A stretch of 58,681 bases of DNA, the filler included, from Vermamoeba vermiformis (Eukaryota), in assembly GCA_045837725.1 (NCBI GenBank). It is 6 parts of 6 records of this genome, joined end to end, with 100 filler letters (N's around TTAATTAATTAA, not from the genome) between each part and the next. Parts side by side here need not be neighbours in the genome. Positions count along the whole stretch, not along the records: positions 5,420 to 15,641 come from JBEWZL010000285.1; 5 more parts are not named here. The stretch is one strand, 5' to 3'. Below, piece after piece: positions 5,445 through 58,681 of the stretch. The notes under the pieces were generated by a model. It did not search any database. It was not told the origin of the DNA and was given only the letters and a program-made list of their open reading frames with translations. How positions within the stretch are numbered: position 1 is the first letter of the stretch; each line of letters opens with the position of its first letter. The translations under genes were made by a program, and so were the position numbers.

Positions 5445-5843
5445 TTATCTCGCAAATATAACTTCTTCAACTAGTTTCTTTGCAATCTCCATTGTTAATT
5501 GGTCTGGAAGTGCAAACACTCTAATCCACTTAGTGAAGTAGTCAACAATGACAATAATGTAGCGATTGCCATTGTGTGTAGGGTTGAAGGGGCTTAGTAT
5601 GTCCATTCCTATTGTTTTGAATGGTGTGGAACAGTGTATGGGTTGTAGCAGCCCAGTTACCTTTGTTCGCTTATGGTGAATGCACTGCTTGCAGGTTGAG
5701 ACCCACGTGTAACACCACACACGAAAAGAGTTCGTGATGACATATATCGCCTGAAATCTCACAATAATCTTGTGAGATAAAAGCCCTTTGCATTGTTTAT
5801 TTTTGTATGCTTTTACTCTATCAATAACACACCTCGCCATCAC
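5445..5843 (-). mobile_element. Degenerate Ty3/gypsy LTR-retrotransposon integrase fragment
   Basis: CKQC Zn-finger end, GLLQPI..PFKTIGMDIL.PF, GNRYIIVIVDYFTKW..VFALPD: the rve integrase core start. The DNA is CpG-poor. Confidence 0.88.
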
Positions 5844-5969
5844 TATTGTACATTGGGTTCTGATTTTGTGTGAACTGTTGTTGTAGATTCGATTGTGAAA
5901 AATTGATTCAGATTTGGCAAAACGTTGTGCTAAAATTAAATAACATGGTCAATAATTCTAATCATAATG

Positions 5970-6760
5970 TTGGACACTGCCTATGTCATCAGATAATCAC
6001 ATCTGTATGTGCTCTCAGTGGACCTGCTTGCATCTCAGGGGAGAAGCCCCACCCAGCCAGCCTAGGTCAAACACTAGAGCGGACAGCTCAGCACCTGGGA
6101 CTACCTTGACAGCCACTCCCTAGCAGTGAGCTCAGAGGGGACACAGACCAACTAGGAATGAAAGACTCCTGCAGGAATTCACAGTCAAGAGCTAGTTCTC
6201 AAGCCTCTGCAGCTGCTCCCCCCTGCAACCAGGCTAGTCCGTGCAAAAGGTCAAGATCTTGCCAATCTGACCAAAGGGATGATAATGGCCACTCCCCTAG
6301 CCCCTGGAGCTTGAGTCTCTCCCCCAAGCTCTGTGACTGAAGTTTGCAAAAGCACAGACATCGATCCATACGCAGAGACAGGCACAGAAACCTCCAATTA
6401 AGCTCCTGTTCTTGTGATCACAGATCTGATTGCTGAAAGCATCACCACTGTTGTGCTCTCTCTCTCTCTCAGCAAGCTATAACAGCTCTGCAAGAAGCAA
6501 CTCAATAAGCACTTTGTGCAATCTTTACTGATCTTGGAGAGAGTCTAAGAGAACAAGTTCTAAGTCTCACAAGTAAACTCACACATGATAAAGGCACCAG
6601 ACACTTGCATCAACATGATGCAGCTCAACAAGGTGCAGTAATAACCATTCCTGAGAATGAGCCATGCTGACACAACTCAACACCCTCCACTTCATGAACA
6701 AATTGACAACAGGGGACTCAAGACAGCCCTTCTGATGACAATTGGTCCCACCTGTCCTTT
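5970..6760. mobile_element. CpG-depleted decayed coding-like relic, probably transposon-derived
   Basis: Moderately GC-rich but nearly devoid of CG with abundant CA/TG; broken Ser/Arg-rich reading frames; adjacent to the integrase fragment. Family not recognised. Confidence 0.4.
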
Positions 6761-6778
6761 TTAGGGTTAGGGTTAGGG
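6761..6778 (+). repeat. Interstitial telomere-type repeat (TTAGGG)3
   Basis: ttagggttagggttaggg read directly; a degenerate counterpart ttagggctggggctagg lies at ~13136-13152. Confidence 0.9.
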
Positions 6779-7099
6779 AGCAAGGAAGGGCCCCCAAAGA
6801 CCGGAAATCGGAGGCGGAGAGGGGCCCCGAAAAAATCCGGAAAAAAACGGCTCAAATTGAACGAAATTGAACACGAACAGGTGCATTCAATTTCGCAATA
6901 GCACCGAGAGATAGCTCCAATAATGAGCTATTGGGACCAGTAAGGGTCCCCGGTAAAATCGACGAGGTAAGGCGGAAATAGCGACGGGTCCCCAGGGCCC
7001 TCGAGGGGATCCGGATCGCTAACTTTGATTGAAAAATTCATTATGGAAATTCATTGCTTAGATATTATTCAGACTGCCGACTATCCACCAGGAAAAATA

Positions 7100-10000
7100 C
7101 CAGAAAAATTCTCGGTAGCGAGGAAGCGGAGAAAACAACGCGGAGATCCGTCCTGTCAGAATGACGGATCAGCGAAGATCTATGGACAATTAATGGCCTT
7201 AGTATGATTTATGGTACGTAATAACAATAATTATAACAAAAATTTAATATTTGTTTGAGTTCGAGGTCAGATTCGAGCCTCGATCTAAATTTAAATTCGC
7301 GAGATGATCATATTCTCATTACTCGCGTCATTTTATTGCCTCATTAGGTTAAATAAAAATCATTTTAAGAATTTCTGTGCATACTACGAACTTAGCCAAG
7401 ATCCCACGCGTCAATTTTTCATAAAGTCCGCGACAGATCGACCAAAAGGGTCGAATTGAACATTCAACTGATTTATTAATATTATTTAGATGCCATTTCA
7501 ATTGACAGTAACGCGCCACGGCATCAGAGCCGTTACAGCGCGAGTTATTTTTGGAACAGACCCGATGCGAAATTGGTAGATCGGCCACAAGGGTCGAATT
7601 ATTCTTCAGTATTGATTATTAGCACCTGTTAGTGAAGCGCCACGACGCCAACGTCGTTTCAGCGCGAGGTATTCGGATAAGTCAAATTCGCACGCGCCAA
7701 TTTTGGAAAGTATTTTAAAAACTTAAGACAGATCGACCACAAGGGTCGGTTTATTTATTTGTTAGTGTTATTGCTTTCGATTACAGCATATAGCAACGCG
7801 CCACGGCATCAGAGCCGTTCAGCGCGAGTTATTTTTGGAACAGACCGCGCGAGTGAGCTGATGCGAAAATGGCGCACGGGCTATTTCGCATTAGTAATTC
7901 AACAGAACGACCACAAAGGTCGTATTAATGATTTATTATGGTTTATTCACAGCAGATAGTCACGCGCCACGGCCACGACGGCCGTTCAGCGCGAGTTATT
8001 GTAGGATTGACCAACAGATCGACCACAAGGGTCGATTTGGTCATTTAGATTGGTTAATTATTATCAACGTACACGCGCCAAACGACAATCAGCGTCGTTA
8101 CAGCGCGGCTTTAAGATCGCGAACCTAACGCGATCAAATCTCGGTGCAGTGACCGAGATAAATCAAGGTAAGATTTTTATATGTATACGTCCACCATGGA
8201 CAATATTATTATGTCGTAAATTCAATTTTTAAATTTTCTGCTGAAAATTATCTGATCCGGATCGAGCCATTTTATCCGGATTTTTAATTAATATCGATGA
8301 AACAATACTAAATATAATATACTAATACTTCATTTTTTATTTAGATTGTGCTCACGATTTTTTACCGCGATCGAAAGTTCCAGTTACTTTCGATGCGCGA
8401 GATCCTGACCACCAATGGTCGTTTTATTATACGATGATGCCTTTAGTTCGTTCCCCGGTGCAGGAACGATGACTATTGCTCGCCGACGGGGTCGGTAACT
8501 TGATGCCGAGATCTAATCCGCCAAGACCCTTAAAATAACTCGGTAAGTTTTTTAATATATTCAATGATGATAGAATAATCGTACCAATGCGTCGATTATT
8601 CATTTCAAAATCAAGTTAAATTTTTTAAAATTATATAGAATCAGATCGAGCTTCGTGCTCGTGCAAACTTTATATTATTGGTTATTATATTATCAATGCA
8701 ATATAGTAATCGTTATTTTATAGGTTATTTCAGTATCGTCTGCGCAGACGTGATGTGCGGATCGTTCGCGTCGATCGCTCAATCCCCGCTAATTCTTCAA
8801 GCGTAAGTAGTTTAAATTTGTTATATTATTCTATTCAATATTATAATGCTATTTATTTAGGCGTTACAAGTTACACGGGACGGATCTCGAACGCGAACTT
8901 CTCGCGTTATTAGATCCATTACATTGCTTGTGGTGGACCGGTAAGTACATATACATGTAGACACTATTATTGCTAACGCACTATTTTAAAAGATATTGCG
9001 AAGGAGACTTCTGATGAACAATTATAAGATCGAGACGCGTCTCGATCCGTTTAAGTTTCAATGTAGGGCATCGATTGCCTTAAAGGTAAGTGATCCCCCT
9101 TATATATTAATATTTTAATTAACTGATGCTAATTTTACGCCTAGGAGATGCCACGGAGCTGGGGCCAGATCGCGTGCAACAATAACTCGATCGCTCATAA
9201 GTTAAGTAACGCGCATCGATCGCGTCAAAAGTAAGTAAAATTGGATTTAATATTATTATTGTAATATAATAACATCTTTATTTATTATTAGAACGGTTGG
9301 ATAAAAGTTTTAATGGATTTGGTGGCGAGAGATCCAGCGCGTCAAAATTTTTGTCTATGGTAACTGACCGACCGAGGTAAGGATAAAAAGTGTAGAAATG
9401 ATCGTTAATAACGTTATTGTAGAATCGATAAGGGTCAGAGCGACCCTTGAGTGACAGAATTCGGATCGGGATCCGACGCATCCCGATCCGTTAAAGTTTT
9501 GCTGAAGAGCTCTAATGGCTCTTAAAGTAAGTGACAACCATCATATAACGTATTTAATGATTATTATAATACCCATTTATTGTTCAGTTAACCCGATTAC
9601 GAGTTAATTTTGGACTTGGCGCGATCTTGGATCACTGACAAAAGTACGGCTCTCAATAGGTAAGTTAATTTACGCTTTTATATTATATCTAATTAATTAT
9701 TAACTCCTTGATATTGTAGAGTTGAAGCGTGTTTGATGTCATCAGAGATCCCGCGGGGCCCCCGTTGATCCCCCGCTTCAGTAATTAACTGCGCGCATCG
9801 ATCGCGCTAAAAGTAAGTTAAATGTTTATTTTATTATTATTTTAAGGTACTAATACATATCATTATACAGAGCAATTCGTTTATTCAATATTTCGTGGAT
9901 TTGGGAACGCGAATCTGGCGCCTTAGAATTTCTGCGGAAACAGGGCTAATGAGTCAGGTACGTTATAAAAACGCTTAATGTACTAGTACTAACGCGATTA

Positions 10001-13000
10001 TAGGTTGGTAAGGGTCACGGCGACCCTTGACATGAACGGACGAGATCGAGATCCTGGCTCCTGATCAAATTGTTGGTGCACATCGATTTGAGCTAAAAGT
10101 AAGTAGAACGCGTTATTTACACATGCTATAACTTACTGATATCATTTTTAATTCAAGTAAGAGCAGGTTAGCTTTTTTTACGGCTGCCAAACCCGCGATC
10201 TGAAGCGAACAATTGTGTAGATTGAAGACAAGTTCTCGACCCGTAAGTAATATCAGATGATTATACTATATATTGACTAATATACTATTACAGTGGATTG
10301 GCCAAAGTAGATGAAATGACGAAGAAATGCGATCCGCAACATGAGCGGATTCGAGATCCGAATATCAGCGTAAAGATAAATAGGTAAGTAAATTTACGAG
10401 TTAATAATCAATATAATCAATTACTGACTCCTTGATATTGTCAGAATTAATGCGTGATTGCGTTTACGCTGATCCACGCGGGGCCCCTCGTTGATCCCCC
10501 AATTTCGGCAATTAATGCGCGCATCGATCGCGCTAAAAGTAAGTCAATTCGATCTATATTTATATTAATTACGTTTTAACATTGTTTATTTGTTCGTAAA
10601 AGGGTCTGAAGAAAAAATTGGCAAATTCGACTACGCGATCTGGCGCGTTATCATTACCGCTCTTGCAGAATGAATGAGTCTAGGTAAGTATTAAAACGTT
10701 TAACGCACCACCTCTAACACGGCTACAGGTTGGTAAGGGTGACCCTTGAAGTAAATGGATGAGATCGAGATCCGCCTTTTCTCGATCCGTCAAATTCCGA
10801 GTTTAACAACGTAAGTATGAATAGTAATTATTTTATTATCACTTAATTTGTTATTCGTTTGCCCAGTTATTGACTCTATCAATGCAGGGACCCTTGCTGC
10901 ACCCCGCGCTAAAATTCAAGATCGAACGCGTGGTAACTTAAGAAAGCGCATCGATTGCGCCAAAAGTAAGTAGACCTTATTTAATACATCATTTGTAACG
11001 TACTGATATCGTTTTTATTAGCGCGAGTCATAGTGATTTCACGGATCGTGTGCGTGATCTGACAGCTCAATTCTTCTCGTTATTCGAACGTGAGAGGACG
11101 TAAGTAGCATAAATCGATTAAACAATATCGTTACTAATATAATTTATGTATAGCTAGAATAAATTAGTCCGTAGAGGCGAAGAGAACGATCCGCAACTTG
11201 AGCGGATTCACCAACTAACTTTCAGCGTTGTTGGTAAAAAAGTAAGTTAATTTACCCTTTAAACTTAATACAAACACTTAATAACTCCTTTTAGAGTTGT
11301 CGTGATTGCTTTCGTCACGATCCCCGCGGGGCCCCCTTTTGATCCCCGAGTTTAGGCAATTTTGCGCGCATCGATCGCGCTAAAGGTAAGCAAAATATGA
11401 TTAAATCTAATATTATATAGTATTGTAATCCGAATTATTTAATTAGGACTTAAGCGAATTGATTCTCAGATCGTTCGTGCCATCAAGAACACGAGAATCA
11501 GTGCATCGATTGCGTTTTGGTAAGTACAACGCGTTTATTACTATAATTACAACGTACTAATACCAGTTTTATGCAGGTATTAGTAGTCATTGCCTCAAAC
11601 CGATGTGTGGCACGCGCGATCTGGCACGTAGCGAATATTAAAACAATCACGTAAGTACACCCAATTATTAATTATCATTTTATAATATTTCGTGCAGTTA
11701 TTTACTTTATTTACGCAGGGACCTTGCTGCACCGCGTATTAGATTCAGATCAAACGTTCGAGTTCAACGATCCAGAGGATAGCAATTGCCCAATTAATAT
11801 AGAATTGTAATTTAATTTAATGTAATAATAAATGTAATAATTGTTTGTTTCAAACAATCGACCGAAAATCTGATCTACATTCTCACCCGATCAGGTCAAT
11901 AGAACGACCACAACAGGTCGTATTATTTTAATATGTAAACAAACGTTGATACAACATCAACAACAAATTGGAGCCATCGCAGCGGCATATTTTGTTATTA
12001 ATGCTGGATCCAACGTCAAATCAATCCACGTAATTAATTAAGTTTGGTAAGTTAAAATATTATTATTAATATCTTTGTCAATTTGGGCAATGTTTCAATA
12101 TTATTTTACCCAATAGAATAAGTTTAAATTAGTTTTATATTATTTCGTCGGATCGAGCTTCGAGCTTGATCAATTTACAAATTATGAGTATTATGATATT
12201 GTATATTATATATTATTACTAAATTTACCTTTCTTGTAGATGAAGGCTTGATCCGGTCGTCGCGCAATTTTTGGATCAACTTTAAAAGATCAAGTTAATG
12301 TGCGGTAAGAGAACATGACAACGGTAATCAGTATTTTATAATTTAAATAATTTTTGTTAGTAACAATACACAGCGCTTAAGTCAAGAAGATCGATCAGCA
12401 CGTCAGGATCACCGCTCCTAGAAACAAGACGAGCAGAGGTAAGTGAATTCAAATGCAGCGTATATTAAATATATTTATTGATTATTACTATTCAGTTTAA
12501 TGCGCCTCGATCGCTGATTGGTCAATTCGTCTGGAACACGATCCGTCCGTTACACGAGACTAGGCGATGCTTTGCCCAACTGTAAGTATTAAATAATTAA
12601 TAACTGCTACGTATACTAACGAAGTAGTGTTACGATTAGGGCCAGTGGTATTGCTGGTGGTAGATCCACACCACCCGTTATAGAGATCTCGCTTGTGCTT
12701 GGCGATGGAACGAAACCGCTGCGTGTCAAGGATAAAATCATGTAAGTACTATTGTTATTTGTTAAATTAATTGGTTACTCGTCAATAATAGTCGAGTTTT
12801 CCAGATCGAGCCGCGTTCGTAAATTCAGCTATAAATATTTGTTTTGTTGTTTTTTTCATTATTCGCTCACCTTCTGTACAGAGTACAACAACATTGCTCT
12901 GTCTGCATTAGATCGATTGTTTAGCAGTCAACGTCCGCTACGCTCTCAGTATGGCTCTGAACGTAAGTAGCAAACGTTAATAATAAAGACGAAAATATTC

Positions 13001-13100
13001 TAATCGCTTTATTTAGTACGCTAATCATATTGACACAACTCTCGCATATCCTATGCCGATCTACTCGCGCATATCCAGGCCAAATGCAGAAACGCGAAGG
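7100..13100 (+). ncRNA. Putative highly spliced, structured long non-coding RNA (about 30 canonical introns, ~70-105-nt hairpin-bearing exons)
   Basis: GTAAG/GTACG donors, branch-like CTAAY and YAG acceptors recur at ~143-nt spacing. The exons spliced by hand give stops in all frames, and paralogous exons differ by non-multiples of 3. Transcription is inferred, not shown; boundaries are approximate. Confidence 0.6.
7433..8107 (+). repeat. Tandem array of five two-hairpin units (A: TCGACC-ACAAG-GGTCGA; B: CGCGC-C-ACGGC-loop-GCCGT-TYCA-GCGCG) separated by AT-rich spacers
   Basis: A stems at 7438, 7581, 7733, 7907, 8019; B stems at 7512, 7637, 7797, 7963, 8074. Stems are preserved despite sequence changes. 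Confidence 0.9.
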
Positions 13101-13183
13101 TAGGTTGTTTTAACAAGATGATAATTATATAGGATTTAGGGCTGGGGCTAGGATTTTTGTTAACAAAAAAAAAAATCACCATG

Positions 13184-14287
13184 CATACACTTTGGTGTAC
13201 GCCCCCTCGCACCCCCGTACGGCACGCTGTACGCCCCCTCGAACCCCCATACGGCACGCTGTACACCCTCTCGAACCCCCGTACGGCACGCTGTACACCC
13301 CCTCGCACCCCCATACACTTTGGTGTCCACCCCTGTACGGCACGCTGTACGCCCCCTCGAACCCCTGTACACCACGCTGTATGCCCCCTTGCATCCCATA
13401 CAGCACACTGTACACCCCTGTACACCCCCCGTACAGCACGCTGTACGCCCTCTCGAAACCCCGTACAGCACGCTGTACACCCTCTCGAACCCCCATACAC
13501 TTTGGTGTACACCCCTGTACGGCAAGCTGTACGCCCCCTTGCACCCCCGTACAGCACACTGTACGCCCCCTTGCACCCATACACTTTGGTGTACACCCCC
13601 GTACAGCACGCTGTACACCCCATCACACCCCCAGTATGGCATGCTGTACACCCTCTCGCACCCATACACTTTGGAGTACACCCCCATACAGCATGCTGTA
13701 CACCCCTTTGCACCCCTGTACAGCATGCTGTACACGCCTTCACACCCCTGTACGGCACGCTGTACACCCATCGCACCCCCGTACAGCACGCTGTACACCC
13801 CTTTGCAATAGCGTACACTTCAGTGTACACCCCTTCGCACCAGCGTACACTTTGGTGTACGCCCCCTTGCCCCCATACACTTTGGTGTACACCCCGTCGC
13901 ACCCCCGTACAGCATGCTGTGCACCCCCCTTTGCACCCCCGTACGGCACACCGTATGCCCCCTCACACCCCGTACGGCACACTGTACACCCCCTCGCACC
14001 CCCTGTACGGCACACTGTACACCCCCTGGCATCCATACACTTCAATGTACACCCCTTCGCACCAGTGTACACTTCAGAGTATGCCCCCTTGCACCCATAC
14101 ACTTTGGTGTACTCTCACTTGGTGCCATACACTTTGGTGTATGCTTGCTTGATGCCGTACACTGTTGCGTATGCTTGCTTGATACTGTGCACTTTGGCCT
14201 ACACCCTGTTGCACCCCTGTACAGCACGCTGTACACCCCCTCGCACCCCTGTACGGCATGCTGTATGCCCCATTGCACCTGTACAGC
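13184..14287. repeat. C-rich minisatellite of ~30-32-bp units (CGCACCCCCGTACGGCACGCTGTACRCCCCCT interspersed with CCCATACACTTTGGTGTAC variants)
   Basis: Directly visible tandem repeat; each unit has an internal inverted repeat; many CG to TG/CA variants. Confidence 0.95.
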
Positions 14288-14559
14288 CTTTTTATCCAAG
14301 GGTAGCCCTTGGGGTAAAAAAACGGCTGGAGTGCTTTTTTAAATATGTTTTTATTTGCAGCCAACAACCCTGGCTGCTGGGTTAGAGTGGCCAACTGGTC
14401 ACAGGGACAGAAAGTAACCAGCTGGTCACAAGACTGATGTCAAGTGTTGTGCTGCACAGCACCAGTGCAACAATGTGTGTACACGGATTGCTCACGTGCA
14501 TGTGGAGCACGTGATCAGCACAGCAAGCAGAGTAATTCATGGCAGATAGGCAAGGGCTG

Positions 14560-15460
14560 TGTGTTCGGCGCTCGAATTCGCAGGCGAGACTCGATGCACT
14601 GACATGCTTGACGAGCAGCTTGTCGCAGTGTGCACAGTGGTGTGTGGCCTGTCATGAGTGCCATGTGGTGTCAATGCGCTGTTGTGCACGGCAATGCGCC
14701 GGGCAATGCTGACTGGAGCTAGGTCAGTGCTGGTACTAGAATATACACATCAATCGACGCACCTGGCTATGTCTCCCTTGCAGAGCTGGAAAATGCGCGC
14801 TAGTTCTACTTCGTCGCTCTGCAGCGCTGTGTACATAGTGGCATCAAAGTGATGATATGGGACTTGACATGCAATGAAACACTGCACGCAACTGGTCAGA
14901 TTCGTTGGATTGAAGTTAAGAACAACCTGACTTACCTCCCGCAGGTTGCTTGCTAGCCGGCAGTCCTATCGAAGCTCTCGGAACGTGTGGCGCTTAAAAG
15001 GCGGCCAGTAGCACTACGTAAACAAATAAAAATTAGATGCCGCGCATCTAAAAATTACAGATTTAAAATTCTCTTACTTACTAAACGCAGCGTACTTGTT
15101 GGCTACCACCCGAAAAGGGTGCGCCTTTGAATTAAGTCGCAGAAACACGTAAGTCCCTACCCAGCAGTGAGCTCGAAGAACGCGTGGCTTGTGACCGATC
15201 GCATCTGCTGAAAAATCTAAAAAATCAGAACTAATCCAATATCAATTCTGCCCCAAGTTATTAATGAAGGAAAACTCACCTCAGTGCACTACGCACTGTA
15301 CGAGTACAAGTTACGAGCATGAGTTAGTGCAAAAGACAGCCGATCGTGCAACGGTAAACTTGGCCGTGGCCGTTGCTGGTGCGTTGTTGTCATTACAAGA
15401 AAATAAATAACTAGAAAATTAATTGCAGGACCATTGTGGTTGTGGTGGTCTTGGTGTTCA
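14560..15460 (-). other. Spliced minus-strand transcription unit or decayed gene, product unclear
   Basis: Plus-strand CTTAC/CTCAC donor complements at ~14931, 15074 and 15275 with matching acceptors; no convincing protein reconstructed. Confidence 0.3.
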
Positions 15461-26300: not shown

Positions 26301-29300
26301 CAGCGACTCAAGTGGTACTAGCTCGACTTGCCAGCCTAGCCCTGTCGGTAAGTCTTCCCAGCGCGGTTGAAGTTTGAAAGCGGATCAGATCTAACAAAGA
26401 TTCTCTTACAGGCAGCGCAAGACTGACTGACTTTACTAACTGGCTCAAACAAAACAACAAAAAGGGTTTCTTGGGCGAGTTCGGTGTCGCTCAGAACTCT
26501 GCTTGCTACACTGCTTTGAGCGAGGCTCTTGCTTACATGCACGCGAACTCCGATGTTTGGTATGACCCAGATCCACGTGTAGTTCATACAAAATGATGTC
26601 TTATGTTATTATATACTAGGGTCGGCTGGACCTATTGGGCTGCTGGTCGTGGATGGCCTGACGATTACATGTTCAACTTGGAACCTTCGAACAACTACCA
26701 GACCGACAAACCTCAATTAGCCTACATGCAGCCTTACTTGAGCGCTAATGCTCCCTTCTCCATTCCTATGGCTCCTTCTGCTCATGTTCCAGTTTCTGCT
26801 GCGCCTCTTCCCGGTGCTTGCACTCCTGAAACAACGAACACGATCTACACGGATTCGCTCGGCGCTGGCTGGGATAACTGGTAATCTATCTCATAATAAC
26901 CTAAGTATTAAATATTAATGGAGTCATTATTATAGGAGTTGGGCTGCTAGCTACAATCTTTCCGATACTTCTCTCAAGAGAAGCGGCACATCCAGTGTTA
27001 GTTTCATTCCTCAAGGCTGGCAAGCCGTTTTCTTCGCTCGCCCTGGCGACACTTTCTCTACATCTACTTATAGTGGCGTTGAGTTCTATATCAACGGAGC
27101 TCCCAATGGAGGTCAACAGATCCGCGTTGGATTCAGACAAGGTGGCAATGAGTACGGATCTCCTACCGTCATTAACATCGGTAGCTTCATTGATGGCGCT
27201 ACTTCTGTTGGCAATGTTTGGCGACGAGTCTACGTGCCATTCTCAGCGATGAACATTGGTCTTGGTGACACTTTGATGGGTGTCACTATCGGCTCTGAAA
27301 CTGACACCGCACAAGCGCGCGTGTATGTTGATGACGTCAGATTGATCTGTGCCGGCACTGCCACGCCCGTTGCTACCCCTGTTGCTACTCCAGTTGCCGC
27401 CCCCGTGAAGCCTCCTACTGCCACTCCTGTCGCAACACCCGTTGCAGCCCCTGTGAAGCCTCCTACCGCTACTCCCGTCGCCGCACCTGTTGCAGCCCCA
27501 GTCAAACCTCCCACCGCCACACCCGTTGCCGTGCCTGTTGCGGCTCCTGTATCACCTCCAGTAGCTCCTCCTGGCTTCGCCTGGACTGGTGTGAACATTG
27601 CTGGTGCAGAGTTTGGTGGATTTTCATTTTGGCCTACGACTCAAGACATGGACTACTTCGCTGGCAAAGGCATGAACATCTTCAGAGTGCCGTTTGAATG
27701 GACTCGATTGCAACCTATCTTGTCTCAACCGTTTGACTCGACCGAAGAAAGCGGCTTGGACACCGTTGTGCAATACGCAACAGTCACCAAGGGAGTTTAC
27801 GTCATCATTGATCCGCACAAGTACGTGCATCCAGAAAAGCACTTACTTTGACTTTTTATTGACCCAAAGTATTGTAGCTACGCTCGTTATGGTGGCTTGA
27901 TTCTCGGTTCAGGTCTTTCCAACGCTCAATTCGCTGATTTATGGACTCGATTGGCCAACAAGTACAAGAGCAACGCCAAAGTCGTAAGTTGAATTAATAT
28001 AACTATACTGACTCCATCTAACTATAACATCGCTATAGTTATTTGGTCTTATGAACGAGCCTCACGATATGCCGAACAAGTAAGTCAAAACTTGCCGTGA
28101 AATATTTGCATTTGACACGTGTCAACTTGTCAATACTTCAGTACCGAAGTGCAATTGTTTAATTCTTGTTCTTAGTGACTGGAAGAACGCCGCTCAAGCA
28201 GCGATCAATGCGATCAGAGCTACTGGTGCCACAAATTACGTCTTGGTCCCCGGCAATGGTTGGACTGGTGCTGCAAGCTGGACCGACAACAGTTACGATC
28301 AAGGTGCTAGCCCGAAGAAATCTAATGCCGAGACTATGCTCACTATTCAAGACTCAAAGAACAAACTCATCTTTGAAGTCCACCAATACTTCGGTAAGTC
28401 GTTCATGAACGATGCGTTGACCGAAGTTTGACTGACACGTGCATTAGACGCTGACTATAGCGGTACCGCTGCCACTTGCCAAGCTCGTCCTATTGGCAAC
28501 TCAACGCTCATTGCGTTCACTAACTGGCTCAGAACCAACAACAAGAAGGGTTTCTTGGGCGAGTTCGGTGGTGGTCAAAACACGAACTGCTACAACGCCT
28601 TGACTGATGCTTTGAAGTACATGAAGGCTAACTCTGACGTCTGGTACGGTCCACAATAGAAAAATAGTCACGTGGTCTAACTGAAATTTCAATAGGGTTG
28701 GCTGGACTGCTTGGGCTGCTGGTGCTGCATGGGGTTCCGATTACGCCCTGAGCTTGCAACCGACGAACAACTATGCCACTGACAAGCCTCAAATGGCTTA
28801 CTTGCTGCAGTACTTGCACACAGCTGGCGCACCAATTTCAGTCCCGATGGCTCCTGTTACGCCTTATGCCGCGCCACCTCTCGTGAGTCCTCCTGTCGCT
28901 ACTTGCACCGTCGGAACTACCAACAGCGTGTTTGCTGATGCTTTGGGAGCCGGTTGGGATAGCTGGTAAGATCGGTTATTATACATATATAATGATATCG
29001 TACTTAAATATGTTATAGGAGCTGGGCTACTGTGCTTAATATGAGCGACTCATCGTTGAAACGAAGTGGCAGCAAATCAATCAGTTTCATTCCTCAAGGC
29101 TGGCAAGCTGTTTATTTTGCCCGCCCTGGCGACACCTTCTCTACATCTACCTATAGTGGTGTTGAGTTCTATATCAACGGTGCTCCTAACGGAGGTCAAC
29201 AGATCCGCGTTGGATTCAGACAAAACTCGAATGAGTTTGGTTATCCGACCACCGTTGAAGTGAATAGTTATATTGCAAACGGTGCTATTAATAATTCTTG

Positions 29301-29501
29301 GAGACGAGTCTACGTGCCATTCTCAGCCATGCAAATTGCTCCTGGCAACAATTTGATGGGCGTTACGATCGGATCTGTAAGTCTTGAACTCTCAATAATT
29401 TCTTCTTAGCGATTGTAACTAATAACTTCCTTATATGATAGTCTACTGATACTGCTCAAGCTCGTGTGTACATCGATGACGTCAAGTTGATCTGTCTGTA
29501 A
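26301..29501 (+). CDS. Multimodular endoglucanase: (partial GH5)-CBM8-like-Pro/Thr linker-GH5-CBM8-like; 5' end truncated by the gap
   Basis: GH5 motifs GVNIAGAEFG, FRVPFEW, IIDPHNY, FGLMNEPH (acid/base), FEVHQYFD, GFLGEFG (nucleophile, twice) and GWTxWAAG (twice). The CBM module WDSWSW...SISFIP...YSGVEFYING...WRRVYVPF resembles the Dictyostelium CelA CBM8. Confidence 0.92.
27355..27572 (+). repeat. Coding repeat: (T/A)PVA / PVKPP linker of the cellulase
   Basis: TATPVATPVAAPVKPP repeated in ORF 27234-27851. Confidence 0.85.
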
Positions 29502-52648: not shown

Positions 52649-55600
52649 TCACTTGATTGATACTTTGCCCATCATGTCAGCAAGCTCTGCTTCCTCTTTC
52701 ATTAAGACATTAGAGGCACCAAAGTCTCCACCAAGCATTGTATTTAAGCCTCTTTCATCATGAACTCTTGCTGTGTTGAAGACCAGCACATGAAGCACTT
52801 CATATCGAGTCATTTGAGAGTAATCTTCATATGTGCATATAGGAATAGGCTGAATATTGTGCCAATCTTCTGTTTTCATTCTTCTATCAAAATTACTGTG
52901 TGCTTTTTTAACATGCTCTGAGTGTCTAGTTCGTAAGCTTCTATCAGTTTTGCCAACGTAGCAGTCCCCTAATTCGTTGCAATAAAAATAGATACAGTGG
53001 GTTGCATCCAGTGTAAGATCCTTTTGAAGTTCTGATTTCTGTTTTGCATTAAGGTCACGACAGTATGTCTGATTTCGCAAACCATGTGCAATGAGTCTTC
53101 TCTGATCTTCATTCCAAATTCTTTCAACATCACTTTCCAAATATTGTAGCATTACAGCAACACGAAAACTATTAAGGAGTTGAGTTCCACTATTTGGTGA
53201 GCGAATTGGGTACTGAGTTTTGCTATGTAATACTCGATGGCGAACCCATGTACAAATGTAGGTGAAATCGTTATTGCCAGCAAAACCTGGTATTGATCGG
53301 ATAGCAAAACCTGATATCATATCAAATACCTTTCACCAAAGTCAATACTATATGTGCTGCAAGTATAATAAACTTACTTCTTTTGCCGTTGGCCTGGCAC
53401 TTGCATCTCTTTCACAGCATTGTTTAGCCAGAAAGTAAATTGGATGGGCTTGCACTATTGGATCAGAGAGAAATTCAGAAATGCTGTGCTCACTAACAAG
53501 AACTTTGCAGGCAATTAGCTCTACAAGAACTGCTCCAAAGGAATAGATATCTGCAGGCAGTGCATATTCTTCGTTTGCAACTTCAGGTGCCATGTATGGA
53601 TTGGTACCAACTTTCAAAGTGTTTTTTGTTCCTTCTTCATATAATTTTGCTGAACCAAAATCTACAAAGAAATATATCAAAAAAACAATTCAATGAACAT
53701 TCAAAACAGTACTCACCAGAAATTACACAGTTTGCAGAGTCATCATCAGTGGTTAGAAGGATGTTGCTTGACTTGAGATCTCGATGCATCCATCTTTGTG
53801 AGTGCAAATAAAGTAAGCCATCTGCAATTTGGTAAGCAAGCTTCATTACAAAGTTGGTAGGCAGAGTTTGCTTTCTCATAATCAGTTTGTGAAGGTCACC
53901 ACCAGCCATCCATGGCATTACCAAGCAATGATCATCTGCATTATATGCCAACAAAGGAATAATTCTTGGGTGTGTCAACTTGATGAGAGCCACTTTTTCT
54001 TGCTCAAATTGTTGTTCAGGCTTTGATGACTGAATCTTCTTGATTGCAAAGAGCTGGTTGCCGTATGCCACTTTAAAGACTTGGCCATAAGAACCTTCAC
54101 CCAGTGGATCACCCTGTGGTCGAAGGGTAGGCAGATTTTGGATGTGGTCTCTTTGTTGATATGAAAAAAATGCCTGCAGCGCCTCTTCAAGAGCAATGGG
54201 GATGAAGCTATTGTAGCACTCACCATTGATGTAGAGATCAAAATAAGATGCAGACTCTGGATTCTCCAAGTGTAAGAACTTAGTCTTTGCGAGAAGATGT
54301 CCAACTCGAGTGAGATTTAACTCCAACTTATTGAAGGCACCAACATGAAGCAAAACTGGCTTGTCTTTGATGGTAGCAACCATATTTGATACTTCACTTG
54401 CTGTGACAATCTGAGGTATTCTCAATGTTGAAGTGAGGTGTAGGCTATTTCTTATGCGCTCCAGTTGCTGATGCTCCATCTCTTTGGCCTTTGAACTGAT
54501 AAATGCCAATCTTACTTCTTGCTCCAGCATTGCACTAAATAAAAAATTAGACTCTCAAGAAAACCAAAGGTAAACATACATTTCTGACTTGAGTGATCCT
54601 ACACATTCATCAATGTTAGTCTTCCAAGCATTCTCTGCAACTGAAGTCACTCCTGCCAACGAAGGAAACTCTGCATATAAAATTGCATTTGCTGCTTCAC
54701 CAACTTTCTTTGAACCTTGGTAAACTTGTGCCATGTGCAACAAAAGATTTTGCAAAGTGGCAATCAGACTGTCTCTCACTAAGCCCAAGTTAACACGGAA
54801 GTGGAAGAACTTGGCTACTGTTCTAAGATGGCGGGCAGTAAATGATGTTATCTCTCTATGTGGCATGGAAACTTTGCTACAAAGCTGTTTCAGCTGATCT
54901 TGTACCAGCTGTTCATAATTTTGATTGTCGTTTTGTAATTGATTTGAAGCCTTCTCCAGAGCAGAAGTAAATGGTTTCATCAATTCATCAATTGTGTAGA
55001 AGTATTCTTTTGAAAATCCAGACCTTGATATGTGTACTCCATCATATGAAGCCTTTGCAAGCACAGCACGAAGAGTACTTCCATGGAGAGTAGCACACAA
55101 TTTAGCTAGGTGCTGCTTAATGTGCTTTTCGAGCTCCTAAGCAGATTATTTTAAATCACTATTATGTTAATATCATTGAACATACCTGAGTAAGGTGCTG
55201 ACTTAATTGTAGATTGACTGGAATTAAGTTTAATTGATGTTGAATTTGAGTGTTGCATTCACCCATGAGCTTATCAAATATTGTTGTGTCGACTTGACTA
55301 TCACCTGCTTGTAAGAATAGCTCTGTTGCTCTATCAACTAAGTGTGAAAAACGACTGGCCAATTCTAGCAAGGCACTGTGAGAGATCATCTTCAAGACTC
55401 TTCTAATTTGATTAATGCCAAGTTTTTCATAGTCAGAATCATGAAGGCTGGCATTTGCTAACTTAGCATCTACTGAGCCATAGTTCATATTGATTTTAAC
55501 TTCTTTACGCATCACTGCTTTCCAAGGCTCAATGAATTGAAAAGTCAATTTTGGGTACTCAGACACCTACCCAACAATTAGAACAAGAAATTGAAATAGC

Positions 55601-57391
55601 TAAGAACTTACTTGGGCCCCAGATGTTGGTCGAAGTAAAATTGTAGTATCAATGTCCTTTTGTCCACGATAAGATTTTATTCTCTCTGTTGCCTGGTTGT
55701 CTTTCTGAATGTCACTTGGAAAGAGATAGAATATGTGCTCTAAATTTGCTTGCTCCAATACTGTAGAAGTCTGAATGTTGATATTTTCACTTGTATCTTC
55801 AAATCCAGGCATATCAACAATTTCAATGCCTTGGATGTGTGGAAATCGACCATGCACATGTATTGCTTTCACAACAAATGAAAGATCTGTGTTTGTACAG
55901 AACTCTTGCAACTTGCTTGCCAGAATTGCCTCTGTTTCAGCTGGATGATCTTGCTTAAGCTCTGCTGCTTTTGATTTAAGTTCGTTCCACCTATCAACAG
56001 CACATTTGATAGTGTAATCATCAGTCTCTTCACTATTACCAATCACTCTAAGGGCTTCATGAAGCTGCTCTTCTTCTAACGGTTCATCTGCTTGTAATAG
56101 ATCTGTAAAATAGACTTTGTCTGCCTTTTCAAGCTCTTCTTCCATACTGAGCGACTTCATTTTGGCTACAGTTGCATCAATATCAAAAGTGTCAAAGGTG
56201 ATTACATAGTCTGCTCTATCAGCATAATGAATGAATGTTGGCACTTTTGTAGTAGTTTGTGTTTGGTGCTTGTTTGCCTCAGGAAGGATTTGGCAACCAA
56301 GTATTGAATTGATAAGAGTACTCTTGCCAGATTTTGTCTTTCCAATAATTGCCACTCTCTTTAGTGGAAGCCTTTTGGTTTTCTCAAGCTCATCAGCAAA
56401 CTTCTTGACACTGTTTTCTAAGGTTGATTTGTAAAGCTGATGCTTGGATAACTGTTCTAAAGTCGTTTGGAACTCCTTCCATGTGTTTTCAATGTCCAGG
56501 ATAGAAGGAAACTGGATAAAACCTTCAGTGTATGAAGCAAACAAATCATTGGAGAAGCGTAGCAATCTAATGATGTACTCGCCAGTACCAATGGAATCTT
56601 CATAGAGTATTGCATGGGCCAATGGTGTTTTACAAACTCGGCTGACTTTGAAAGTAAGACCATATGTTGATGCTAGTCCTTCCAGGTTTGTGATGTCTTC
56701 TACCTTTGCACTTAGGTTGCCAATGCTTAATGAATTCCAAACTGAACGAATTGCTAGTGGGAGAGCACATGGTAAGCTGATGTGTTTGCAATTCTGGTCC
56801 TCCAACCAGGCAAGAGACCAGGCCCACTCTGAACTAATGCATTCAATCCAAGGAACATACAGCCCCTCAGCTGCATTTGGTTGTGCGTAGATTGATGCCA
56901 GATTTGGTAGCTTACAAGTCTTTTCATAAAAGCGACCATTGGAAAAAACAAACTACATATGAGTTAGAAAGAATTAATATTAGGACACAGGACATACGTG
57001 AATGGAGGGTAGATAAGAGTCAACTTTTTTAAAAGCCCCTTCAACTTTCTTAATGAAAGCAGACAAATCTGAGTATTGAATTAGAAAGGGCCCTAACTCA
57101 ATAAATATCACACGTACCTTTGACTTTGTATTCAGCGAGTAGAAATGAAACGTCCTCGTTTGACAAGTATTGAAGCAATGATTTAAAGTCCGGCTCCTCT
57201 CGCACGTCCTTCAAAACTTCACCAACAGCCCCTGAAGCATGTATCTCGAGGATAAATGAACTTTTAAGTGGTATTACACGCACAGAAGTTGCACCACACG
57301 CGTGCAGAAAGTTCCAATAGCTCGGAATGAATTGGCTCGACGTTGGGGTTGAATTAACCACAAACCAATGAGCGGTACTTGTGGTCTCCAT
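52649..57391 (-). CDS. 1468-aa fusion: unknown N-terminal region, dynamin-like GTPase, helical region, TKL-type protein kinase, GIY-YIG endonuclease; 8 exons
   Basis: Exons 57391-57118, 57068-56998, 56952-55612, 55566-55186, 55136-54580, 54534-53717, 53661-53378 and 53329-52649 all splice in frame through GT-AG introns. Motifs: GKTKSGKSTLINSILG, TTKVPT, DMPG; GEGSYG, AIK, HRDLKSSN, DFG, APE; CIYFYC...YVGKTDRSLRTRHSEH. Confidence 0.88.
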
Positions 57392-58681
57392 GCTGACTAA
57401 AAAAAACAAAGTGATTAAATTCGTTGACACGCTGAAGAGATACGTTGCGCCCGAAAGGTTACGTGATGTCTTGTGGTGAAATAACCATGACCTCACGCGG
57501 TGGTGTGAGGACGACTCACCACTTCAATAATCAAGTTACTAGGGATGAGTTCCATAAGGAATTTAAAATTAATTAATTAAGGCGGAATTACCCTAAGTGC
57601 GTAATTTAACTGTAGAAAAAATTAACGAGCGCTACTTACCTGGTTTTTTACGGCAAGCTTTAAATTGCACGACGCTTTAATAGTTGCCATTGTTCCAAGC
57701 GCAGGTACGTTAAGATAAATATCGTGAACAACATTGATAGAGTTTTTCCGCCTTCTAGAAGCTTTCGCGTTTCTGCGTGTCGAAAGAACTTTTGCATTGC
57801 ATCACCAACTTCGGTTGAGGTGCTTGTCTTTACTGCAGCGAAGTCAGGGTGCGCCGCCAAGGAGCTTGAATTTGAAGAACGAATCTGGCGCGTAACCTCG
57901 TAAATGAATAGTCTGAAACTTATCTCTTCAATTAACTGATTAGCTAAGTTTAAATTACAATGTTGGATTATACTTCCTTACTTTGCACGAGATGCGCCCG
58001 TCAATCCTTTTGAACACATTTAAATTTTAATTTAACACGTGGTTGCTTTTTCTAATCTCTCTTCTATATCTATCGCAGTAATAGTAAATTATTAATTGAT
58101 AATAATTATTAATTAATAAATCAAAATTTGTTAAATAGCTTACATTTTAATAATTTTGAGTACCGAACAACTATATAATAAATTTATCACGAATAGATCA
58201 TTAATTAATGGTACCAACCATAAAAGACCAACCAAATAAGCCAAGTGGTCTCCAGGGATTCGTAATAGTAAGGGTACGTATAGTAGTTTACTATAAGCAG
58301 CTATGAACAACGCGTTGTTTGTTCTCGCGGCAATTATTTATATAAATATAATAAGTTCAAGGAATTGTGTTGACGGATTCGAGTTTAAGTGAACTTTACA
58401 TCATTTAATCGTTCATCGAACATACTGTATCGCCTATTATTAAGATTTCTGTAGTTCTTGTTTGTCAAAGACTGCGAATGCTTGCCTCTCATGTTCGTGC
58501 AACTGGCCGTACTTCTTGCGTTCATGCTTTGATCTAACATTGTATTGGTCACTTCATTGCTCATGAACCGTTCAGTGGCGAATGCGAGACAAAGATTGGG
58601 TTAGCAAGGCTTCTCAATGACGTTCGAGGTTCTCGTCGACTGTTCTTCGTTGAGAAATTGGTTTCACACCGTTTAATTTAT

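What the first reader, a model, noticed from the sequence alone, without database searches (positions are those of the whole stretch)
7433..8107. 5' tandem double-hairpin array with compensatory base changes
Seen: five A+B units at a mean spacing of ~145 nt. Hairpin A TCGACC/GGTCGA becomes ACGACC/GGTCGT (double compensatory change, 7907), TCGGCC/GGTCGA and TCGACC/GGTCGG (G-U compatible on the + strand). The inner stem of hairpin B swaps between ACGGC/GCCGT, ACGACG/CGTCGT, ACGGCC/GGCCGT and AACGAC/GTCGTT with free loops, while the outer GCGC/GCGC stem and asymmetric bulge are kept. Lone A-like hairpins recur at 8407 and 11904. Inference: selection acts on structure, as for a multivalent protein-docking module. 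GC hairpin pairs with U-rich spacers at the 5' end of a spliced lncRNA parallel the Xist A-repeat and roX stem-loops, by analogy and not homology.
Basis: partly seen in the sequence, partly recalled or inferred. Interest (0 to 1): 0.82.

Follow-up and report, generated by a model that had tools for sequence, protein, structure and literature searches.

The report
Tandem double-hairpin array heading noncoding repeat
Five old but well-kept copies of a two-hairpin module sit at the head of a repeated, intron-rich, non-coding locus of an unidentified eukaryote; they look functional, but whether they act as RNA or as DNA is not settled.

Summary
Five A hairpins and five B hairpins lie at 7433-8107 on the + strand, where chance gives about 0.02 and 0.01 sites. 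All ten fold as described. Motifs are 84-96% identical between units and spacers about 50%, so the units are old and constrained.

Pair-keeping changes exist: two double changes and two wobbles. They are too few for significance; 28 of 500 shuffles match the A-stem score.

Downstream lie at least 23 introns of the host's own type, spaced about 142 nt, with no reading frame. A spliced non-coding unit on the + strand is therefore plausible.

Three RNA-seq runs of the same species label give no coverage from 7263 to 7925, and about one partial read in each of two runs just after. DNA contigs suggest several near-identical copies with reshuffled modules. Fold energies do not pick a strand: A favours +, B favours -. 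No Rfam match and no relatives were found.

Best reading, at 0.35: a multivalent hairpin leader of a repeat-derived non-coding RNA. Promoter monomers and plain repeat DNA remain serious rivals.

The parts
7438..7454 (+). Hairpin A1: TCGACC / loop AAAAG / GGTCGA
   Evidence: -8.7 kcal/mol as RNA
7512..7542 (+). Hairpin B1: outer CGCGC stem, 1-nt 5' bulge, inner ACGGC/GCCGT, 3' UACA
   Evidence: -15.6 kcal/mol
7547..7555 (+). Sm-site-like ATTTTTGG(A) just after B1. The same motif follows B3 at 7831, and AATTTTGGAA lies at 7700 after B2.
   Evidence: 3 in about 0.7 kb against 26 in 58.7 kb on the + strand; two of the three are duplicates of one another
7581..7597 (+). Hairpin A2: TCGGCC/GGTCGA, with a G.U pair on the + strand
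   Evidence: -8.1 on +, -3.0 on -
7637..7665 (+). Hairpin B2: outer GCGC stem (4 bp, outermost pair lost), inner ACGACG/CGUCGU
   Evidence: -13.2 kcal/mol
7733..7749 (+). Hairpin A3: TCGACC/GGTCGG, with a U.G pair on the + strand
   Evidence: -10.4 on +, -6.9 on -
7797..7826 (+). Hairpin B3, with the same inner stem and loop as B1
   Evidence: -17.1 kcal/mol
7858..7894 (+). Extra 11-bp hairpin (CTGATGCGAAA / TTTCGCATTAG) in the B3-A4 spacer, which explains the 174-nt spacing
   Evidence: (I14)
7907..7923 (+). Hairpin A4: ACGACC/GGTCGT, with the closing pair changed on both sides
   Evidence: -8.8 kcal/mol
7963..7993 (+). Hairpin B4: inner ACGGCC/GGCCGU
   Evidence: -20.1 kcal/mol
8015..8039 (+). 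Hairpin A5 (core 8019-8035), which can extend to 10 pairs including one G.U
   Evidence: I20; -11.0 kcal/mol
8074..8107 (+). Hairpin B5: inner AACGAC/GUCGUU with a 7-nt loop
   Evidence: -15.5 kcal/mol
8108..8167 (+). Putative end of the first exon, with two perfect hairpins (8115-8135 and 8138-8159) before the first donor, CAAG|GTAAGA, at 8168
   Evidence: z -4.81
8168..11719 (+). Body: 23 predicted introns (45-181 nt) alternating with GC-richer exons of 72-198 nt. Donors recur every 127-155 nt from 8803 to 11651. A higher-order repeat of about 720 nt is present.
11897..12002 (+). Sixth, degenerate unit: an A-like hairpin at 11904-11921 (ACGACC/GGTCGT, 6-nt loop) plus a GTTATT tail, with no B. 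It lies 143 nt before the next donor at 12047.
12047..13100 (+). Further exon-intron modules, with GTAAGT at 12047, 12439, 12582, 12742 and 12963. They belong to the same transcript or to a second one.

Best explanation
The five A+B pairs are old, constrained copies of a two-hairpin module. They form the intron-less head of a repeated, intron-rich, non-coding transcription unit on the + strand.

The most likely working form is the folded + strand RNA leader, which would offer several equivalent docking sites. Hairpin A is a 6-bp stem presenting a nearly fixed CACAAG loop. Hairpin B has a fixed CGCGC base and asymmetric internal loop, under an apical stem-loop that is free to change as long as it pairs. 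An Sm-like U-tract follows three of the B hairpins.

Shown: the motifs, their conservation against diverged spacers, their folds, the downstream host-type splice signals, the absence of a reading frame, and signs of extra genomic copies.

Inferred: that the array lies inside the transcript, that RNA and not DNA is the active form, and that proteins bind it.
For: - Motif counts are far above chance.
- Motifs are 84-96% identical between units, against 48-54% for spacers, B loops and tails.
- Ten of 10 hairpins fold as named, with high ensemble frequency. The whole array folds with z -11.45.
- RNAalifold recovers A and the two-tier B without being told.
- Stem changes are mostly pair-keeping: two double changes (A4's closing pair; B's fourth pair in B2 and B5) and two + strand wobbles (A2, A3), against one lost pair at the outermost position of B2.
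- B's apical loop varies in length (4-7 nt) and sequence, which fits a folded hairpin poorly matched by a fixed double-stranded protein site.
- Downstream there are 23 introns. Nineteen of the 23 begin GTAAGT and all 23 end in AG. GTAAGT occurs 24 times on + and once on - in 8-14 kb. They are of the same type as introns of a coding gene in the window. They are kept although module copies are only about 71% identical, which argues that the + strand is or was transcribed and spliced.
- A sixth A-like unit again sits 143 nt before a donor.
Against: - Three RNA-seq runs of the same species label, each with about 13 million records read (46-48% of the run), give zero depth in all bins from 7263 to 7925. 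Depth is 0.11-0.19 in 7926-8146 in two runs and 0 in the third. All 8, 6 and 9 laid reads fit only partly.
- The start of transcription is unknown. The array could lie wholly upstream of it.
- Covariation is not significant: 28 of 500 shuffles reach the score.
- There are at most two or three independent double changes, and B1 and B3 are duplicates.
- Fold energies do not choose the + strand. A2, A3 and A5 are better on +, but all 5 B hairpins are better on - by 0.9-2.6 kcal/mol. Thirteen hairpins sum to -158.3 on + and -156.3 on -.
- Body exons show no strand bias: 10 of 24 favour +. The G.T to A.C ratio is 5:1 at stems of 6 or more pairs but 8:7 at 5 or more.
- Summed DNA word depth is about 5-11 times that of the flanks across 7484-9251, and nine contig joints show other module orders, as in repeat DNA.
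Confidence: 0.35

Rival explanations
1. DNA-level promoter or enhancer monomers. The array lies upstream of the start site near 8108-8140. A and B are double-stranded binding sites, palindromic because they bind dimers or are bipartite, repeated in tandem to drive the downstream non-coding unit. This would resemble the tandem 5' monomers of mouse L1, rDNA spacer enhancers, or the tandem repeats of human subtelomeric TERRA promoters (all recalled, not checked here).
For: - The loop and flanks of A are as conserved as its stem: ACAGATCGACCACAAGGGTCGAAT, 84% identity.
- Most of B is fixed in sequence: GCGCCACG ... CGTT.CAGCGCGAG.
- No RNA reads cover 7263-7925.
- Unit number differs between genomic copies; joints skip 460-461, 70 and 101 nt.
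- Energies are strand-neutral.
- A single A-like unit precedes the second run of donors by 143 nt.
Against: - Double changes that keep complementarity (A4; B's fourth pair), together with B's variable loop length of 4-7 nt, are not expected of independent half-sites.
- One contig joint places an A5 unit 28 nt after the middle of a body exon (10348 to 8012). In at least one copy the unit therefore sits inside the exon-intron series.
- No factor or known motif was tested. Resemblances to known factor sites are recalled only.
Confidence: 0.25
2. Plain repeat DNA. The array is a module of a complex satellite or subtelomeric repeat family with no function of its own. Palindromes spread by duplication and are kept or corrected by DNA-level processes such as gene conversion or hairpin-templated quasi-palindrome correction (recalled).
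For: - Depth is high and contigs are reshuffled.
- The whole 7.4-13.1 kb region is modular at about 145 nt, with a higher-order repeat.
- It is flanked by (TTAGGG)3 at 6761 and a C-rich 32-nt satellite at 13196-14287.
- One joint links B2 to the base before the TTAGGG run (7644 to 6759).
- It is not expressed in three runs.
- The family is not seen elsewhere in the window.
Against: - Motifs stay 84-96% identical while spacers in the same units have fallen to about 50%. Neutral repeats do not do this unless conversion is confined to 20-35-nt patches.
- Splice signals are kept in 23 of 23 downstream modules despite about 29% divergence.
- No terminal inverted repeats and no transposon ORF were found in 5.9-14.5 kb.
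Confidence: 0.22
3. A tandem array of small Sm-class RNA genes. Each B hairpin, the U-tract that follows it (AUUUUUGG or AAUUUUGG) and the next hairpin would form the stem / Sm site / stem domain of a small nuclear or spliced-leader-like RNA.
For: Sm-like AU4-6GG motifs follow B1, B2 and B3 and lie between hairpins. That is 3 in about 0.7 kb against 26 in the 58.7-kb + strand.
Against: - No Rfam snRNA or SL family matches at E up to 1 or at gathering scores.
- There is no GTAAGT donor inside 7433-8107.
- B4 has a degenerate motif and B5 none.
- Two of the three motifs are one duplication.
- No reads lie on the array, though standard libraries lose small RNAs.
Confidence: 0.06

Closest known systems
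Xist A-repeat (mammals)
   Same: Several GC-rich repeat cores that can each form a double hairpin, separated by U-rich linkers that are less conserved than the cores. Sequence varies between repeats of one species, and four units suffice for high-affinity protein (SPEN) binding (passages read in PMC10870365). Here there are likewise five cores of two hairpins with AT-rich spacers about 50% identical.
   Different: There is no sequence likeness and no Rfam match. Units here are about 145 nt, and each hairpin is separated from the next by 40-60 nt; they are not one 24-26-nt core (core size recalled). The organism has fungus-like short introns. Presence in RNA is not shown. The locus is multi-copy.
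roX1/roX2 stem-loops with roX boxes (Drosophila; recalled, no paper read)
   Same: Repeated stem-loops in a spliced non-coding RNA that act through structure plus a short conserved sequence.
   Different: roX stem-loops lie towards the 3' end and are not a regular tandem array. No motif likeness was tested or seen.
Tandem promoter monomers: mouse L1 5' monomers, rDNA spacer enhancers, human subtelomeric 61-29-37-bp TERRA promoter repeats (all recalled, none read)
   Same: A tandem array at the 5' side of a multi-copy transcription unit, with unit number differing between copies (joints). The setting may be next to telomere-like repeats.
   Different: Those arrays are not defined by paired hairpins with pair-keeping changes. 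Promoter activity was not tested here.
Subterminal repeats of DNA transposons and the Helitron 3' hairpin
   Same: Short palindromes repeated near the end of a multi-copy element.
   Different: No terminal inverted repeats. No CTRR within about 12 nt after any A or B hairpin (read). No transposase or Rep ORF; the longest open frame in 6.8-13.05 kb is 92 aa. The body carries spliceosomal introns.

Membership tests
Any Rfam 15 family | Covariance-model match | tested here: not met
   No match at E up to 1 in 7433-8107; the only hit in 6000-15000 was snoU82P at 6276-6342, at 18.2 bits against a gathering score of 42. No match at gathering scores in the whole window. RNAs interrupted by introns would be missed.
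Xist-A-repeat-like docking array (functional class, not homology) | Tandem conserved GC-rich hairpin cores with less conserved U/A-rich linkers | tested here: met
   Cores are 84-96% identical and linkers 48%. The folds are confirmed.
Xist-A-repeat-like docking array (functional class, not homology) | Lies in the 5' exon of an expressed long non-coding RNA | tested here: inconclusive
   Non-coding spliced-type modules follow directly. RNA depth is zero over 7263-7925 in three runs, and the start site is unknown.
Xist-A-repeat-like docking array (functional class, not homology) | Binds several copies of a protein | not testable with these tools
   No candidate partner is known. No complex prediction was attempted.
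Structured RNA by covariation (R-scape-type criterion) | Significant covariation in the proposed pairs | tested here: inconclusive
   For the A stem, 97.6% of 42 cells pair, the score is 0.246 against 0.147 +/- 0.043, and 28 of 500 shuffles are as high. Three of 19 pairs carry a double change, and the covariation term is -0.44 kcal/mol. Only 5-7 related copies were available.
Sm-class snRNA / spliced-leader RNA genes | Sm site between stem-loops | tested here: inconclusive
   Present after B1, B2 and B3, degenerate after B4 and absent after B5.
Sm-class snRNA / spliced-leader RNA genes | Match to a known snRNA or SL family, or a splice donor inside the unit | tested here: not met
   No Rfam match. 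No GTAAGT between 7000 and 8542.
Helitron terminus | Hairpin 10-12 nt before a 3' CTRR end | tested here: not met
   Read: none of the ten hairpins is followed by CTRR within about 12 nt.
DNA transposon with subterminal repeats | Terminal inverted repeats and a transposase, or a known non-autonomous family | tested here: not met
   No inverted repeat of 18 nt or more brackets the locus. No ORF above 92 aa. No eukaryotic repeat library was on hand, so a known family cannot be excluded.
tRNA-derived repeat | tRNA-like fold | tested here: not met
   ARAGORN finds no tRNA gene in the window.

The most novel reading that the evidence does not exclude
The locus represents an undescribed kind of modular non-coding gene. 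It would be a multi-copy family built from about 145-nt modules, each either a GC-rich hairpin exon plus a short canonical intron, or an intron-less A+B double hairpin. The head would be a multivalent platform for assembling a ribonucleoprotein: five A hairpins with a fixed CACAAG loop, and five two-tier B hairpins, three of them followed by Sm-like sites. It would be expressed only in a stage not sampled by the available RNA-seq.
Probability: 0.15. Interest if true: 0.75.

Novelty: new variant of a known kind. Interest (0 to 1): 0.45.

Why it matters
If the array works as RNA, it would be an independent invention of the "tandem hairpin cores with U-rich linkers" design known from Xist, in an organism with fungus-like introns. 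It would also give a compact system, with 20-35-nt motifs and natural compensatory variants, for asking how multivalent hairpin arrays recruit proteins.

The wider locus is unusual in its own right. About 30 non-coding exon-intron modules at a near-constant pitch of about 142 nt, with splice signals kept through about 29% divergence, suggests selection on splicing itself in a repeat-derived RNA.

If the array is instead promoter monomers or plain subtelomeric repeat DNA, it is of local interest only.

Tried and rejected
- Fixed-gap B pattern: 0 hits. The loops differ in length, so I replaced it with the variable-gap pattern.
- Whole-genome search: no genome is held for this window.
- Earlier scan notes by place, sequence and words: nothing on this genome or on look-alikes. 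The eight listed notes concern phages, bacteria or human DNA and do not bear on this.
- Metagenome scan for A+B: 4 loci. All lie in 64-70% GC contigs, each with a single A-like site and no B, so they are chance hits.
- Viral scan for the A 18-mer: 1 locus, a single site in a 58% GC contig with no B, so a chance hit.
- Full-text search for four motif strings: 0 papers.
- A search for papers on tandem exon-intron non-coding repeats: 73 hits, 10 listed, none relevant by title or abstract.
They are no evidence of anything.
- Taxonomy from proteins: the dynamin-like ORF had no sequence relatives, and the Atlas gave only bacterial dynamin clusters at 0.90 or below. Pfam and PDB hits (TKL kinase, GH5, SPRY, GIY-YIG, rve) do not fix a lineage. 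"Fungus-like" rests only on intron style and my own knowledge.
- Strand test by G.T against A.C in stems: 5:1 at 6 or more pairs, 8:7 at 5 or more. Too few to decide.
- Strand test by per-module z-scores: no bias in body exons.
- Covariation in the recurrent exon-end hairpin around ATCGAT (8 exons). I abandoned it because (GC)n arms pair in shifted registers, so columns cannot be matched.
- Coding reading of the spliced exons: stops in all three frames, and 10 of 24 exons are closed in every frame.
- Two of my 23 intron ends (10603, 11719) were set one base late; the AG lies one base earlier.
- One search was an unfinished script that only printed the window length.
Full report
**Observation.** The sequence at 7433-8107 holds five copies of hairpin A and five of hairpin B, all on the + strand. 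The pattern CGRCC-N5-GGTCG matches only at 7439, 7582, 7734, 7908 and 8020 in the 58,681-base window. Chance gives 0.02 matches, and 0 of 100 shuffles reach the observed count. GCGCCA-N12-26-CAGCGCG matches only at 7513, 7637, 7798, 7964 and 8075, against 0.01 expected. A first version with a fixed gap found nothing because the loops differ in length. Spacing is 143, 152, 174 and 112 nt. The long interval holds an extra 11-bp hairpin at 7858-7894 (I14).

All ten hairpins take the named fold as their minimum-energy structure. As RNA, A gives -8.1 to -11.0 and B -13.2 to -20.1 kcal/mol, with z-scores of -2.8 to -5.6. As DNA the values are -3.9 to -6.9 and -9.0 to -12.6. B has the same two-tier shape in 5 of 5 units: a CGCGC base (4 bp in B2), a 1-2-nt 5' bulge, an inner stem of 5-6 bp, a loop of 4-7 nt, and 3-4 unpaired bases on the 3' side.

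**How strong the structural signal is.** Between units, the A hairpin with its flanks is 84% identical, the outer stem of B 96% and the inner stem of B 84%. The A-B spacer is 48%, the B loop 52% and the tail 54%. The units are therefore old duplicates whose motifs are held.

RNAalifold finds A and the two-tier B unaided. Nineteen pairs are predicted and 3 carry a double change, but the covariation term is only -0.44 of -22.34 kcal/mol. For the A stem I counted seven sequences: the five array copies plus those at 11904 and 8407. Of 42 cells, 97.6% pair. One pair has a double change, U-A to A-U, in A4 and in the 11904 copy. The covariation score is 0.246 against 0.147 +/- 0.043, and 28 of 500 shuffles reach it.

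In B, only the fourth inner pair covaries: G-C in B1, B3 and B4, and A-U in B2 and B5. B1 and B3 are recent duplicates. One pair is lost, the outermost of B2. Pair-keeping change is thus real but rests on two or three events, and no test has power with these numbers.

**Context.** From 8168 onward the + strand reads as a series of short exons and introns. I placed 23 introns between 8168 and 11719. Nineteen begin GTAAGT, and the other four begin GTAAGA, GTAAGG, GTACGT and GTAAGC. All end in AG; two of my ends were one base late. Many carry a CTRAY branch motif.

GTAAGT occurs 24 times on + and once on - between 8 and 14 kb, against 0-5 per 2 kb elsewhere. From 8803 to 11651 the 20 donor-to-donor intervals are 127-155 nt, with a mean of 142.4 (positions). 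This is close to the 145-nt pitch of the array.

A coding gene of the window, a GH5 cellulase at 26.9-29.4 kb, has introns of the same kind: 54-66 nt, GTAAGT, CTRAY, AG. The joined exons (2,126 nt) have stops in all frames, and 10 of 24 exons are closed in every frame. No open frame in 6.8-13.05 kb exceeds 92 aa.

The body is a higher-order repeat. 9655-10054 and 10379-10773 are 71% identical, and there are further pairs at 72-81%. The splice signals have survived that divergence, which argues for selection on splicing of a + strand RNA.

A sixth, degenerate unit lies at 11897-12002. It scores 26 bits, and only the A part and a GTTATT tail align. It sits 143 nt before the donor at 12047. The 8407 site is only a 5-bp look-alike and was not found by the model.

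**Expression and copy number.** I laid three RNA-seq runs carrying the same species label. About 12.95-12.97 million records were read from each, 46-48% of the run. They placed 8, 6 and 9 reads on 6600-13200, and every read fitted only partly.

All bins from 7263 to 7925 have zero depth in all three runs. Bins 7926-8588 have 0.11-0.19 in two runs, first mate on the - strand, which amounts to about one read each. Most of the reads lie at 13009-13200, beside an A-run. No joint was reported in RNA. This is no evidence for transcription of the array. It is also not proof of absence, because stage, RNA class and depth are limited.

In the DNA run X1 the summed word depth is 54-83 over 6821-7483 and 294-619 over 7484-9251. 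It is 56-190 from there to 12345, with the single-copy level near 55. The tool warns that this is not a copy number. Even so, nine listed joints show that other, rearranged copies exist in that DNA. They include skips of 460-461, 70 and 101 nt within the array, 10348 joined to 8012 with 28 letters between, and 7644 joined to 6759 beside the TTAGGG run. X1 may be the sample from which the window was assembled.

**Relatives and known families.** No genome is held for the window. Rfam gives nothing for the array, and ARAGORN finds no tRNA. The metagenome scan gave 4 chance hits in high-GC contigs, and the viral scan gave 1 chance hit. Motif strings occur in 0 papers. No terminal inverted repeats bracket the locus.

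**Which strand, RNA or DNA.** The whole array folds at -255.3 kcal/mol (z -11.45) on + and -237.6 (z -7.04) on -, and 4 of 5 units have a lower z on +. The motifs themselves disagree. A2 (-8.1 against -3.0), A3 (-10.4 against -6.9) and A5 (-11.0 against -9.1) favour +. All five B hairpins favour - by 0.9-2.6 kcal/mol, because the conserved C/A mismatch at the base becomes a G.U pair. Thirteen hairpins sum to -158.3 on + against -156.3 on -.

Body exons show no bias: mean z is -0.95 on + and -1.09 on -, and 10 of 24 favour +. Wobble against A.C counts are 5:1 or 8:7, depending on the cut-off. The + strand assignment therefore rests on the splice signals and not on the hairpins.

GC-rich hairpins with 6 or more pairs are denser in the array (10.4 per kb) and the body (3.45 per kb) than in the rest of the window (1.5-1.7 per kb).

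**Explanations.** I rank them as follows.
- 0.35: a folded hairpin leader of the + strand non-coding RNA, acting as a multivalent docking array.
- 0.25: double-stranded promoter or enhancer monomers upstream of the start site.
- 0.22: a module of a complex, perhaps subtelomeric, repeat family with no function of its own.
- 0.06: small Sm-class RNA genes, suggested by AU4-6GG motifs after B1, B2 and B3 but without any Rfam support.
- The remainder is unassigned.

Against it stand the absence of reads, the unknown start site, the strand-neutral energies and the repeat-like copy behaviour.

**Comparison with known systems.** The design resembles the Xist A-repeat. That has eight and a half repeats with less conserved U-rich linkers, each repeat can form a double hairpin, and four units suffice for tight SPEN binding (passages of PMC10870365). 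The resemblance is analogy only. There is no sequence likeness and no Rfam match, the unit size differs, and presence in RNA is unproven. roX stem-loops, L1 monomers and TERRA promoter repeats are cited from recall.

**Verdict.** This is a real and constrained tandem double-hairpin array in an unusual modular non-coding repeat locus. The RNA-docking reading is plausible but unproven, and on present data it is no better than even with the DNA-level rivals taken together.

Noticed in passing
window 8168-13100: About 30 non-coding exon-intron modules at a near-constant pitch: 20 donor-to-donor intervals of 127-155 nt, mean 142.4. They form a higher-order repeat of about 720 nt whose copies are 71-81% identical, yet all keep GTAAGT, branch and AG signals. 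Exons are rich in GC hairpins, many with GATC in the stems; GATC occurs 27-29 times per 2 kb here against about 10 elsewhere.
   Followed up: partly
window 5960-6778: An 800-nt CpG-poor segment of about 50% GC ends in (TTAGGG)3 at 6761-6778. Its composition is unlike its surroundings. DNA word depth in bin 6600-6820 is 9.9, against 83 in the next bin. The lay tool silently drops human-like records, so this may be a foreign or chimeric piece, or an interstitial telomere junction.
   Followed up: no
window 13196-14287: A C-rich tandem repeat with a 32-nt consensus (TGTACACCCCCTCGCACCCCCGTACAGCACGC), about 26 copies, with higher-order periods of 84-222 nt. It lies directly after the non-coding locus.
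   Followed up: no
window 7547, 7700, 7831: Sm-site-like AUUUUUGG or AAUUUUGG motifs sit between hairpins after B1, B2 and B3. The loop of the first exon-1 hairpin (8122-8128) reads AACCTAA.
   Followed up: partly
window 9070-11505: Eight exons end with a GC-stem hairpin around ATCGAT followed by (U/C)AAAAG|GTAAGT (donors at 9086, 9231, 9813, 10099, 10539, 10966, 11386, 11520). The hairpin is placed 4-6 nt before the splice donor.
   Followed up: partly
window 26919-29409: Two similar open frames, at 26919-27851 and 29008-29409, share one N-terminal domain. The first continues through a Pro/Thr/Val-rich linker built of 48-nt repeats into a GH5 cellulase domain (Pfam E 2.8e-10).
   Followed up: no
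window 52649-57523 (- strand): A run of adjoining open frames carries dynamin-like GTPase, TKL-type kinase and GIY-YIG domains in a stretch with few CpG (19-60 per 2 kb against about 100). The GTPase part has no sequence relatives in the 5.8-billion-protein search.
   Followed up: partly
window 5445-5948 (- strand): A weak integrase-core (rve) match, E 3.4e-05 and below the Pfam cut-off. It is probably a decayed retroelement or DNA-element fragment next to the CpG-poor segment.
   Followed up: no
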